This document shows, piece after piece, positions 1-1,138 of a stretch of 1,138 nt of DNA. The stretch comes from Naegleria gruberi. Lineage: Eukaryota. A program made the translations under genes and the position numbers. Numbering within the stretch: the first letter of the stretch is position 1; every line of letters begins with the position of its first letter. The notes below the pieces were generated by a model. That model worked only from the letters and a program-made list of their open reading frames with translations, did no database searches and was not told where the DNA came from. The stretch lies in NCBI GenBank assembly GCA_000004985.1, contig GG739535.1, one strand, 5' to 3'.

Positions 1-877
1 AACTGTTTAATTTTCCATTAATGATTTCTTCCACTTTGAAAATGAGAGATTCTGCTCTGTCCAAATGATTCTTAATCTTTGTTTCAGTTGACATTGGATG
101 TGAATAGTATGATTCCAATAGTAAACAAGCTTCTACCAAATGATTTCTTATTTTGGAAAATTCCTTCTTAATATATTCAATTTGTTTAGGAGTAGTAATA
201 TAGTAATTATATAACTTGCCAGCCAATTGAGCTGTCGTTGTACATGAATCAAGCAAGCAAAATATCATAAAATTGGATACTTGCTTATCTAAAGCATCTT
301 GTAATTGAGTTTTGAATTTTTTAACACCTTCCTGAATAGTGTTATCAGTTATTTCAGTCAAGTTATCAATCCAATCTTTGGATGAAACTTGTTTTTTAGC
401 TGGTTTCAACCATTCTAGTATAGTATTGGCAGGTGTTTGAAGATTTTCTGGAAGTAATTCAGCTGCTTTCTTACATCCATTATCAAGGAATTTATCCCAA
501 ATTTGACTAAGTGCATCGAGACAACCATTTGCCTTACCACTCACTGAATTACAAACTTCACAAATTTCCTCCCTCGTTACAGCATTTTTCAGAGAGGTTT
601 CCATTTCAGATAAAAGTGATGGAATGTTACTACTCAATTCAGTAATGTGATTTACAGCAGCCAAACGAAATGGAAGTTCAATAACTTTACCAACAACCAA
701 CAAGGTCAATAGAGAGACACTATTAGATTCTTTATCTTTTATTTCCTCAAATGGAACAGCATCTGGTAATTCAGCAGCTAATAAAGTTGCAAGAGAACCA
801 AGTTGTTCCTTTAATTCTTCATCACTATAATTATGTGTTGGAAGCAACTCAATAGCACGTAATAGATTTTCAGTCAT
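1..877 (-). CDS. N-terminal 292 codons of a protein of unrecognised family (hypothetical, probably helical, soluble, Cys-containing); the 3' end runs beyond the left edge of the window
   Basis: I reverse-complemented the window block by block and checked that the frame is continuous. It starts ATG ACT GAA AAT CTA TTA CGT GCT... at complement 877-875. There is no stop codon through 292 codons (codons occupy 877 down to 2; position 1 is the first base of codon 293). In about 67% A+T sequence an open frame of this length is very unlikely by chance. Reading upstream in the same frame gives a TAA at complement 935-937 with no other ATG in between, so 877 is the first possible start. A is at -3, preceded by an A-rich leader (AATAATAAAAAAAACAACAAATATA ATG on the coding strand). 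Codon choice is non-random and yeast-like (TTG/TTA, CCA, GGT, GCT, AGA, GAA). The +-strand frames across the same region are broken by frequent stops. Confidence 0.8.
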   Translation of the reverse strand, partial: MTENLLRAIELLPTHNYSDEELKEQLGSLATLLAAELPDAVPFEEIKDKESNSVSLLTLLVVGKVIELPFRLAAVNHITELSSNIPSLLSEMETSLKNAVTREEICEVCNSVSGKANGCLDALSQIWDKFLDNGCKKAAELLPENLQTPANTILEWLKPAKKQVSSKDWIDNLTEITDNTIQEGVKKFKTQLQDALDKQVSNFMIFCLLDSCTTTAQLAGKLYNYYITTPKQIEYIKKEFSKIRNHLVEACLLLESYYSHPMSTETKIKNHLDRAESLIFKVEEIINGKLNS

Positions 878-888
878 TATATTTGTTG

Positions 889-896
889 TTTTTTTT
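889..896 (-). promoter_or_regulatory. Poly(dA:dT) tract (T8 on +, A8 on the gene strand) within the 5' leader, 12-19 nt upstream of the ATG
   Basis: Read directly (gttgTTTTTTTTatt). Homopolymeric dA:dT tracts are typical of nucleosome-depleted yeast promoters and 5' UTRs. Low specificity. Confidence 0.3.
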
Positions 897-986
897 ATTA
901 TTGTAAGGAGGAACAAGTTGTGAATGTGGAGCTGTTATTGGATTGATGATAATGTGTATTCTTAAACAATTGTTTGGTGATTTGTT

Positions 987-996
987 AAACGTGATA
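987..996. promoter_or_regulatory. Copy 3 of the element in inverted orientation (AAACGTGATA = reverse complement of TATCACGTTT)
   Basis: Read directly: gttAAACGTGATAtaagg at 987-996, a 10/10 match to the reverse complement of the other two copies. It overlaps a TATA-like stretch (gATATAAGg, 994-1000) about 118 nt upstream of the ATG. Confidence 0.35.
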
Positions 997-1046
997 TAAG
1001 GTTACATGAATCAAATATTTAGTCATTCGGTATTGAAATGTTCTTT

Positions 1047-1057
1047 TATCACGTTTT
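1047..1057. promoter_or_regulatory. Copy 1 of repeated E-box-like element TATCACGTTTT (core CACGTT)
   Basis: Read directly: ttTATCACGTTTTatg at 1047-1057. An identical 11-mer recurs 15 bp downstream and an inverted 10-mer copy lies 50 bp upstream. CACGTT is a half-canonical E-box (CACGTG-type bHLH site); CACGTTTT is the form known from the low-affinity Pho4 site of yeast PHO5 UASp1. Confidence 0.4.
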
Positions 1058-1061
1058 ATGC

Positions 1062-1072
1062 TATCACGTTTT
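1062..1072. promoter_or_regulatory. Copy 2 of TATCACGTTTT, direct repeat of copy 1 (15-bp period)
   Basis: Read directly: gcTATCACGTTTTgaa at 1062-1072. This is an exact 11/11 match to 1047-1057. Confidence 0.4.
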
Positions 1073-1090
1073 GAAATTTCCCTTAACTGA

Positions 1091-1104
1091 ATTTATTAAT
1101 AAAT
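1091..1104. repeat. 14-bp perfect palindrome ATTTATTAATAAAT
   Basis: Read directly: the sequence equals its own reverse complement. It is entirely A/T, so it is not a stable hairpin or terminator. It may be a TATA-like element or a dimeric homeodomain or forkhead-type AT-rich site, or it may be chance in AT-rich DNA. Confidence 0.25.
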
Positions 1105-1138
1105 TAATGGAATAATTGAGTTGAAAATAATGATTTTA

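What the first reader, a model, noticed from the sequence alone, without database searches (positions are those of the whole stretch)
987..1072. Three copies of the 10-11-mer TATCACGTTT(T) (two direct, one inverted) in the promoter, about 110-195 nt upstream of the ATG
A specific 10-mer occurring three times in 90 bp is far beyond chance even in AT-rich DNA. The element contains C and G, so it is not low-complexity sequence. The two direct copies are spaced 15 bp centre to centre, about 1.5 helical turns, and the third copy is inverted. This arrangement is what a clustered transcription-factor binding site looks like. The core CACGTT is an E-box half-variant. CACGTTTT matches the low-affinity Pho4 (bHLH) site form of S. 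cerevisiae PHO5 UASp1. The flanking TCACGT also resembles Cbf1-type RTCACRTG sites. That makes phosphate- or Cbf1-type bHLH regulation of the downstream gene a testable hypothesis, but the factor identity is inference only.
Basis: partly seen in the sequence, partly recalled or inferred. Interest (0 to 1): 0.55.

Follow-up and report, generated by a model that had tools for sequence, protein, structure and literature searches.

The report
Repeated 10-mer in a Naegleria promoter
Three exact copies of TATCACGTTT sit in the short non-coding stretch upstream of an orphan gene of the amoeboflagellate Naegleria gruberi (not a yeast); they are most likely docking sites for an unidentified DNA-binding protein, but nothing beyond the statistics of this one locus could be tested.

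Summary
TATCACGTTT occurs exactly three times, at 987-996 (-), 1047-1056 (+) and 1062-1071 (+). The two + copies are 11-mers 15 bp apart. The cluster lies 110-195 nt upstream of the ATG at 877 of a 292-codon minus-strand ORF. No dinucleotide-preserving shuffle produced a comparable clustered triple containing both C and G (0 of 20,000).

The window is not yeast. Its protein is 100% identical to GenBank EFC35229.1, "predicted protein, partial [Naegleria gruberi]", and the window is that protein's whole 1138-bp record. The protein has no other relative among 1.84 billion representatives, so no orthologous promoter could be compared. The Naegleria genome could not be reached with these tools.

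The Pho4/Cbf1 reading therefore has no basis in the host. The core CACGTT is not an E-box (CANNTG), misses Cbf1's RTCACRTG by one base, and the conserved block is asymmetric. bHLH and bZIP factors both read CACGTT in other organisms.

The best reading is a homotypic cluster of protein-binding sites (confidence about 0.5). It lies in what may be a 252-bp divergent promoter, because a second ATG sits at 1130 on the + strand. Neutral local repeats, a hairpin and a transposon remnant remain possible. Interest is modest.

The parts
987..996 (-). Motif copy 1, TATCACGTTT (followed by A, not T), read in the direction of the minus-strand gene; 110-119 nt upstream of its ATG
   Evidence: Exact match. 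Left arm of the 14-nt inverted repeat with copy 2.
1047..1057 (+). Motif copy 2, the 11-mer TATCACGTTTT
   Evidence: Exact match.
1062..1072 (+). Motif copy 3, the 11-mer TATCACGTTTT, 15 nt start-to-start from copy 2
   Evidence: Exact match.
977..981 (-). Possible degenerate fourth half-copy (ATCAC only), 14 nt from the ATCAC of copy 1. It gives a <- <- . -> -> layout with a shared dyad centre near 1021.5-1022. Weak and noticed after the fact.
   Evidence: ATCAC occurs 7 times in the window against 2.6 expected, and 4 of the 7 lie in this cluster.
2..877 (-). Partial coding sequence (292 codons, runs off the window start) of an orphan, all-helical protein, EFC35229.1 / XP_002667973.1 of Naegleria gruberi
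   Evidence: Translation. 100% match to P0001. GC by codon position is 0.43, 0.33 and 0.21. The open stretch of 311 codons compares with a maximum of 147 in 1000 shuffles. No Pfam family reaches its cut-off and no other homologue was found.
878..1129 (.). Non-coding region carrying the cluster: the upstream region of the minus-strand gene and, if the ATG at 1130 is a real start, a 252-bp divergent intergenic region
   Evidence: Sequence. Composition is A 0.31, C 0.08, G 0.18, T 0.43. Three of its four CpGs lie inside the motif copies. No Rfam family matches.
1130..1138 (+). Possible start of a divergently transcribed neighbour gene (ATG ATT TTA, then the record ends). Its context, AAAATAATGA, mirrors that of the minus-strand start.
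   Evidence: Inverted pair I4, 874-883 / 1124-1133, 90% complementary. List of ATGs. Only three codons are visible, so this is unverified.
1090..1105 (.). Perfect 16-nt AT-only palindrome AATTTATTAATAAATT, 25-40 nt upstream of the ATG at 1130; a candidate TATA-like element
   Evidence: Inverted pair I5, 8+8 nt with no gap. The function is inferred only.

Best explanation
The three copies of TATCACGTTT(T) are recognition sites for one sequence-specific DNA-binding protein of Naegleria gruberi. Together they form a homotypic site cluster in a short upstream region that probably drives the minus-strand orphan gene. If the ATG at 1130 is real, the cluster also drives a divergent neighbour.

Each gene has the copy or copies nearest to it in its own sense orientation. 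Copy 1 points toward the minus-strand gene, and copies 2 and 3 point toward the plus-strand ATG.

The invariant block is 10-11 nt, asymmetric, and contains an ACGT core next to a GATA/TATC element. It is therefore more likely read by a monomer with two DNA-reading modules or by a heterodimer (a Myb-like, bZIP or bHLH heterodimer, or a member of the C6 zinc-finger family expanded in this lineage) than by a symmetric homodimer of the Pho4/Cbf1 type.

Shown: the copies exist, they are non-random, they have sharp boundaries, they lie in non-coding DNA upstream of a real gene, and the host is Naegleria. Inferred: protein binding, the identity of the factor, any effect on transcription, and which gene is regulated.
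For: Exact triple 10-mer: 0 of 200 shuffles for this word, and 0 of 20,000 shuffles give any clustered triple containing both C and G.

The invariant block is exactly the 10-mer, with chance-level flanks. The 4-nt spacer between the direct copies differs from the corresponding flank at all four positions in either register (ATGC vs GAAA, or CTTT vs ATGC). Tandem Repeats Finder reports no array there. This argues against a plain recent tandem duplication.

An inverted copy is present, and slippage cannot make one.

The cluster sits in AT-rich non-coding DNA 110-195 nt upstream of a gene with clear coding signatures, and 58-143 nt upstream of a second ATG.

CpG is strongly depleted across the window (9 observed, 26.9 expected), yet every copy keeps its CpG, and these make up 3 of the 4 intergenic CpGs.

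ACGT-core sites of the same CACGTT form are bona fide factor sites in yeast and plants (PMC3010110, PMC9082941, PMC5461414).
Against: There is no evidence beyond this single locus. The gene is an orphan, so no orthologous promoter exists to compare. The Naegleria genome could not be reached, so genome-wide enrichment of the word upstream of genes is untested. No cis-regulatory element or cognate factor has been described in Naegleria in the literature I could search (PMC12183034).

The record is a 1.1-kb unplaced scaffold, so the neighbouring gene, the transcription start sites and even single-copy status are unknown. Local repeats also arise neutrally in AT-rich intergenic DNA.
Confidence: 0.5

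Rival explanations
1. Neutral local repeats. The copies are by-products of micro-duplication and template switching in AT-rich intergenic DNA, or of chance, and bind nothing specific.
For: All support for function is statistical and comes from one locus. Small direct and inverted repeats are common in AT-rich non-coding DNA (general knowledge). My i.i.d. estimate allows about 2 such clusters per 41-Mb genome by chance, which matters if the window was selected from a genome-wide scan. The flanks show no conservation.
Against: 0 of 20,000 shuffles give a clustered triple with C and G. The 11 nt are identical while all 4 spacer positions differ, which is improbable for a duplication followed by drift (about 1% for 4 changes to fall in one contiguous block of a 15-nt unit; my calculation). 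No tandem array is called. The CpG is retained in all three copies in a CpG-poor sequence.
Confidence: 0.25
2. One reading: low-affinity E-box-like sites for a bHLH factor of the Pho4 or Cbf1 type, giving phosphate-type or Cbf1-type control.
For: CACGTTTT equals the Pho4 core of PHO5 UASp1 (PMC3010110). ATCACGTT matches 7 of 8 positions of RTCACRTG. bHLH proteins can bind CACGTT weakly (PMC9082941). One paper describes HLH as a pan-eukaryotic family (PMC10406608).
Against: The host is Naegleria gruberi, not a fungus, and Pho4 and Cbf1 are fungal factors (my own knowledge). There is no CANNTG in any copy and no CACGTG in the window. All copies share the same 'defect' and the same 10-11 nt asymmetric flanks, which points to a different, longer specificity. 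bZIP factors bind the same core (PMC5461414). C6 zinc fingers, not bHLH, are the dominant specific-factor family in Naegleria (PMC3537659).
Confidence: 0.08
3. Structural element. Copy 1 pairs with copy 2, or alternatively with copy 3, to form a hairpin or cruciform in DNA, or a stem-loop in a long 5' leader RNA.
For: There is a 14-nt inverted repeat with 13 of 14 positions complementary and a 42-nt loop. Folding of 975-1085 gives z-scores of -1.8 (RNA, + strand), -2.8 (RNA, - strand) and -1.9 (DNA). Copy 3 offers an alternative partner.
Against: The z-scores are modest and follow trivially from the inverted repeat. A transcript containing the stem would need a leader of at least 195 nt (- gene) or 143 nt (+ gene), and those leaders would carry upstream ATGs: 1007 and 1026 on the - strand, and 1006, 1038, 1058 and 1107 on the + strand. 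No Rfam family matches. A 42-nt loop disfavours cruciform extrusion.
Confidence: 0.07
4. Mobile-element remnant. The inverted pair forms the terminal inverted repeats of a roughly 70-bp miniature element, or the copies are subterminal transposase-binding repeats, which would fit a tiny unplaced scaffold.
For: Inverted arms lie at 987-1000 and 1043-1056. Unplaced 1-kb scaffolds are often repetitive (general knowledge). Subterminal short repeats in both orientations are typical of hAT and CACTA elements (my own knowledge).
Against: No target-site duplication flanks the arms (read directly). The ORF has no paralogue or transposase-like relative anywhere. No similar DNA was found in the plasmid collection, and the pairs found in metagenome and viral contigs are unrelated tandem repeats.
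Confidence: 0.07

Closest known systems
S. cerevisiae PHO5 UASp1 (Pho4 site, CACGTTTT)
   Same: The 8-nt string CACGTTTT is identical to copies 2 and 3 (PMC3010110). In both cases the site lies upstream of a gene.
   Different: The host is a heterolobosean, not a fungus. Here the conserved block extends 3 nt further 5' (TAT) and is repeated three times identically. No high-affinity CACGTG partner site exists in the window. Pho2 cooperation and phosphate control are unknown.
Plant T/G-box (CACGTT / AACGTG), read by the bZIP HY5 and weakly by the bHLH MYC2
   Same: Same hexamer core with an ACGT centre (PMC5461414, PMC9082941). This shows that the core is used by two unrelated factor families.
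   Different: Plant factors in a different supergroup. No orthology is shown. The Naegleria element is defined over 10-11 nt, not 6.
Cbf1/USF-type site RTCACRTG
   Same: ATCACGT matches 7 of 8 positions, including the 5' T flank.
   Different: The last base is T in all copies, which destroys the palindrome. There is no exact match in the window.
Homotypic clusters of transcription-factor sites in compact bidirectional promoters (a general class)
   Same: Several identical sites lie within about 90 bp, in both orientations, centred in a roughly 250-bp region between two possible divergent starts.
   Different: The factor, the effect and the second gene are all unverified here.

Membership tests
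E-box (bHLH site) | Hexamer CANNTG | tested here: not met
   All three copies read CACGTT, and there is no CACGTG in the window. The only CANNTG near the cluster is CAATTG at 968-973, inside a separate palindrome.
Cbf1-type site | Exact RTCACRTG | tested here: not met
   Every copy matches only with one mismatch, at the final G.
Pho4 / PHO regulon UAS | CACGTK core, with the T-rich 3' flank of the low-affinity form | tested here: met
   CACGTTTT is present in copies 2 and 3 and CACGTTTA in copy 1. The string equals the UASp1 core (PMC3010110).
Pho4 / PHO regulon UAS | The host is a fungus that encodes Pho4 and the PHO pathway | tested here: not met
   The encoded protein is 100% identical to EFC35229.1 of Naegleria gruberi, and the record length equals the window.
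Pho4 / PHO regulon UAS | Phosphate-dependent expression of the downstream gene | not testable with these tools
   No expression data are available here.
ACGT-core element (T/G-box type) | ACGT core with a CACGTT hexamer | tested here: met
   CACGT occurs 4 times in the window against 0.43 expected, and 3 of the 4 are in the copies.
ACGT-core element (T/G-box type) | Bound by a bZIP or bHLH protein of the host | not testable with these tools
   The Naegleria proteome and genome could not be queried by organism. Nothing relevant was found in the literature.
Homotypic cluster of cis-regulatory sites | At least 3 copies of one non-low-complexity word within about 100 bp of non-coding DNA upstream of a gene, beyond chance | tested here: met
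Homotypic cluster of cis-regulatory sites | Conservation in orthologous promoters, or enrichment of the word upstream of other genes in the same genome | not testable with these tools
   The protein is an orphan. Look-ups of encoding contigs for two N. gruberi proteins found nothing on record.
Miniature inverted-repeat element | Terminal inverted repeats flanked by a target-site duplication | tested here: not met
   The inverted arms are present, but the bases flanking 985-1058 show no direct duplication.
Miniature inverted-repeat element | Multiple copies in the genome | not testable with these tools
Simple tandem duplication | Head-to-tail units alike over the whole period | tested here: not met
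   11 of 15 positions are identical and all 4 spacer positions differ. Tandem Repeats Finder finds no array at 1047-1072.

The most novel reading that the evidence does not exclude
TATCACGTTT is the recognition word of a lineage-specific Naegleria transcription factor, for example a member of the expanded C6 zinc-finger family or a Myb-like protein. It organises a dyad-symmetric bidirectional promoter (<- <- . -> ->). Its single retained CpG may make binding sensitive to the cytosine methylation and Tet oxidation system of this organism. If so, it would be the first defined cis-regulatory element in a heterolobosean.
Probability: 0.12. Interest if true: 0.6.

Novelty: new member of a known kind. 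Interest (0 to 1): 0.3.

Why it matters
Naegleria is a model for rapid, transcription-driven differentiation from amoeba to flagellate. A recent review states that the factors controlling its cilia genes are still unknown (PMC12183034), and I found no described cis-element for this genus.

A well-defined 10-mer would give a concrete probe for DNA-affinity purification and a word to count genome-wide. On present evidence, though, it is a single-locus lead upstream of an orphan gene on an unplaced 1.1-kb scaffold. Its value therefore depends entirely on the genome-wide count, which I could not run.

Tried and rejected
**Orthologous promoters.** The protein has only itself as a hit among 5.8 billion clusters and 1.84 billion representatives, so there is nothing to align.

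**Gene function.** No Pfam family reaches its cut-off and there is no relative in the PDB. The single-sequence AlphaFold model has pLDDT 47 and is all-helical, too poor for a fold search, so none was run.

**Reaching Naegleria genomic DNA.** The encoding-contig look-up failed for P0001. I then recalled the NgTet1 sequence, verified it against PDB 4lt5 and found it in the protein collection. Its locus is also not on record.

**Scans of public collections.** Searching for TATCACGTTT-N0-30-TATCACGTTT gave more than 120 metagenome loci and 20 viral loci. Their GC content ranges from 0.23 to 0.67, and the repeat periods cluster at 11, 12, 21, 30 and 33. They are unrelated tandem and coding repeats. 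A composition-matched scrambled word gave 16 viral loci. These hits are background and say nothing about Naegleria. The exact 26-mer spanning copies 2 and 3 had no metagenome match.

**Contamination or vector.** No similarity to any plasmid record in distant mode.

**RNA families.** No Rfam match at E up to 1.

**Bacterial-type promoter and terminator scan.** At shuffle level, and not relevant to a eukaryote.

**Literature.** I found no paper on Naegleria promoter motifs or on bHLH proteins in Naegleria. De Mendoza 2013, Iyer 2008 and the genome paper are not held.

**TET sequence preference as an angle on the CpG.** The paper reports that the Naegleria enzyme acts in a broad sequence context, so it gives no discriminating prediction.

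Full report
**The observation.** The window is 1138 nt with about 31% G+C. TATCACGTTT occurs exactly three times: at 987-996 on the minus strand, and at 1047-1056 and 1062-1071 on the plus strand. Allowing one mismatch finds no additional copy, and none of 200 dinucleotide-preserving shuffles reaches three matches. The two plus-strand copies are identical 11-mers (TATCACGTTTT) with 15-nt start-to-start spacing. The minus-strand copy has A at the 11th position. Copies 1 and 2 extend to a 14-nt inverted repeat matching at 13 of 14 positions, with 42 nt between the arms. Aligning the three copies with 12-nt flanks shows that the invariant block is exactly the 10-mer and that the flanks are at chance level.

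**Chance.** I corrected for having looked at all 10-mers. A non-overlapping triple within 100 bp on either strand arose in 7 of 20,000 shuffles of 878-1138, and none of those words contained both C and G. For the whole window it arose in 1 of 6,000 shuffles, again none with both C and G (an earlier, looser test is). My rough i.i.d. estimate is about two such clusters of this composition per 41-Mb genome.

**Context.** A minus-strand reading frame starts at the ATG at 877-875 and runs off the start of the window, giving 292 codons. It is a real gene. G+C by codon position is 0.43, 0.33 and 0.21. The open stretch is 311 codons, against a maximum of 147 in 1000 shuffles.

**A possible second gene.** Its context, AAAATAATGA, mirrors that of the minus-strand start (pair I4). 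A perfect 16-nt AT-only palindrome lies 25-40 nt upstream of it (pair I5). If that start is real, 878-1129 is a 252-bp divergent intergenic region with the cluster in its middle. Copies 2 and 3 would then lie 58-83 nt from the plus-strand ATG. Each gene would have its proximal copy or copies in its own sense orientation.

**A possible fourth half-copy.** A fourth ATCAC on the minus strand at 977-981, 14 nt from copy 1, would complete a <- <-. -> -> layout around a common centre near 1021.5-1022. This is a post-hoc and weak observation.

**Organism.** The encoded protein is 100% identical to a single database entry, "predicted protein, partial [Naegleria gruberi]" (EFC35229.1 / XP_002667973.1). 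The longest contig on record for it is 1138 nt, which is the window itself. Its accession is eight numbers away from that of NgTet1, which also sits on a record of about 1.1 kb. I read the window as one of the tiny unplaced scaffolds of the N. gruberi assembly, not as an mRNA. The sequence is therefore not from a yeast. This removes the biological basis for a Pho4 or Cbf1 assignment and for the proposed comparisons with "related yeasts".

**The gene.** The protein is a complete orphan, with no other hit in 5.8 billion clusters or in 1.84 billion representatives read by HMMER. No Pfam family reaches its cut-off and there is no PDB relative. The single-sequence structure model is all-helical but of low confidence (pLDDT 47), so I ran no fold search. 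No orthologous promoter exists to test conservation.

**Attempts to test recurrence.** Naegleria genomic DNA could not be reached. The encoding-contig index has neither this protein nor NgTet1. For NgTet1, I recalled the sequence, verified it residue for residue against PDB 4lt5 and found it in the protein collection. Scans of metagenome and viral contigs for two copies of the 10-mer within 30 nt gave many loci. These are a heterogeneous set of tandem and coding repeats, with G+C from 0.23 to 0.67 and periods of 11, 12, 21, 30 and 33. A composition-matched scrambled word gives the same order of hits, 16 against 20 viral loci. They are background. The exact 26-mer spanning copies 2 and 3 occurs nowhere in the metagenome set.

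**What the element is not.**
- It is not a simple tandem duplication. 11 of 15 positions are identical while all four spacer positions differ, and Tandem Repeats Finder calls nothing there.
- It is not a known RNA family.
- It is not vector or plasmid DNA.
- It is not an E-box. The hexamer is CACGTT, and no CACGTG occurs in the window.
- It does not match Cbf1's RTCACRTG exactly. All copies miss at the final base.

**The hairpin and transposon readings.** The inverted repeat gives only modest folding z-scores of -1.8 to -2.8. A transcript containing the stem would need an unusually long leader carrying upstream ATGs. No target-site duplication flanks the inverted arms, and the ORF has no paralogue. 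The transposon-remnant reading is therefore weak, but it cannot be excluded without the genome.

**Most likely function.** I commit to a homotypic cluster of binding sites for one sequence-specific DNA-binding protein acting on a compact, possibly bidirectional, promoter (confidence about 0.5). The support is as follows.
- The block is discrete, exact and asymmetric, and spans 10-11 nt.
- It occurs in both orientations.
- It lies in non-coding DNA close to one or two start codons.
- Every copy keeps its CpG although CpG is depleted threefold across the window. These copies hold three of the four intergenic CpGs.

**Factor family.** This is open. The string CACGTTTT equals the Pho4 core of PHO5 UASp1 (PMC3010110). 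However, CACGTT is also a weak site of the plant bHLH MYC2 (PMC9082941) and a T/G-box site of the bZIP HY5 (PMC5461414). The 5' part, TATC, is a GATA core on the other strand (read from the sequence). C6 zinc fingers are reported as the dominant specific-factor family in Naegleria (PMC3537659, citing Iyer 2008). All three copies share the same asymmetric sequence, which argues for a monomer with two reading modules or a heterodimer and against a symmetric homodimer. That step is inference.

**Novelty and verdict.** A recent review states that the factors controlling Naegleria cilia genes are unknown (PMC12183034), and I found no described cis-element for the genus. Any validated motif would be a first. 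But this is one locus, upstream of an orphan gene, on an unplaced 1.1-kb scaffold, with no conservation, enrichment, expression or binding evidence. The general reading as a binding-site cluster is retained. The yeast Pho4/Cbf1 identification is rejected as unfounded. The finding is a new member of a known kind, with interest about 0.3. The decisive and cheap test is a genome-wide positional count of the word in the N. gruberi assembly.

Noticed in passing
window 1130-1138 (+), with 1124-1133 and 874-883: A plus-strand ATG lies three codons before the end of the record. Its context, AAAATAATGA, mirrors that of the minus-strand start codon. It may be the start of a divergently transcribed neighbour gene, which would make 878-1129 a bidirectional promoter.
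   Followed up: partly
window 1090-1105: Perfect 16-nt AT-only palindrome AATTTATTAATAAATT, 25-40 nt upstream of the ATG at 1130. It is a candidate TATA-like element.
   Followed up: no
window 965-976: Perfect 12-nt palindrome AAACAATTGTTT with a CAATTG (CANNTG) core, 11 nt from motif copy 1. By my estimate it is not significant on its own in this AT-rich region (p about 0.16).
   Followed up: partly
window 977-981 (-): A fourth ATCAC lies 14 nt from that of copy 1. With copies 1-3 it gives a <- <- . -> -> arrangement with a shared dyad centre near 1021.5-1022. ATCAC occurs 7 times in the window against 2.6 expected.
   Followed up: partly
window 1-1138; CpGs at 236, 517, 575, 666, 858, 990, 1028, 1052, 1067: CpG is depleted about threefold (9 observed, 26.9 expected). 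Three of the four CpGs in the non-coding part lie inside the motif copies. This is of interest because N. gruberi has Tet-like 5-methylcytosine dioxygenases.
   Followed up: partly
window 851-1000: GC skew is strongly positive on the + strand (up to +0.69). The sense strand of the minus-strand gene's leader is therefore very G-poor (3 G in 83 nt upstream of the ATG), as in many 5' leaders.
   Followed up: no
window 1073-1080: GAAATTTC fits two inverted heat-shock-factor units (GAAnnTTC) directly after copy 3. The chance expectation in this region is about 0.09, so it is not significant.
   Followed up: no
window 241-252 and 1004-1015; also three copies of the 9-mer CTGAATTAC/GTAATTCAG in the coding region: The 12-mer TACATGAATCAA occurs once in the coding region and once between motif copies 1 and 2. 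A 9-mer occurs three times within the coding sequence. Both are probably chance.
   Followed up: no
database record: NgTet1 (EFC35221.1), a well-studied enzyme, is also recorded on a contig of only 1110 nt, and its accession is eight numbers from this protein's. Several genes of the N. gruberi assembly evidently sit on unplaced scaffolds of about 1 kb.
   Followed up: no
L011, L031, L081, L097, L098 (metagenome loci): A conserved 33-nt tandem unit beginning TATCACGTTTTCGAGCATGTA recurs in several unrelated metagenome contigs. It is probably an 11-residue coding repeat and is unrelated to the window.
   Followed up: no
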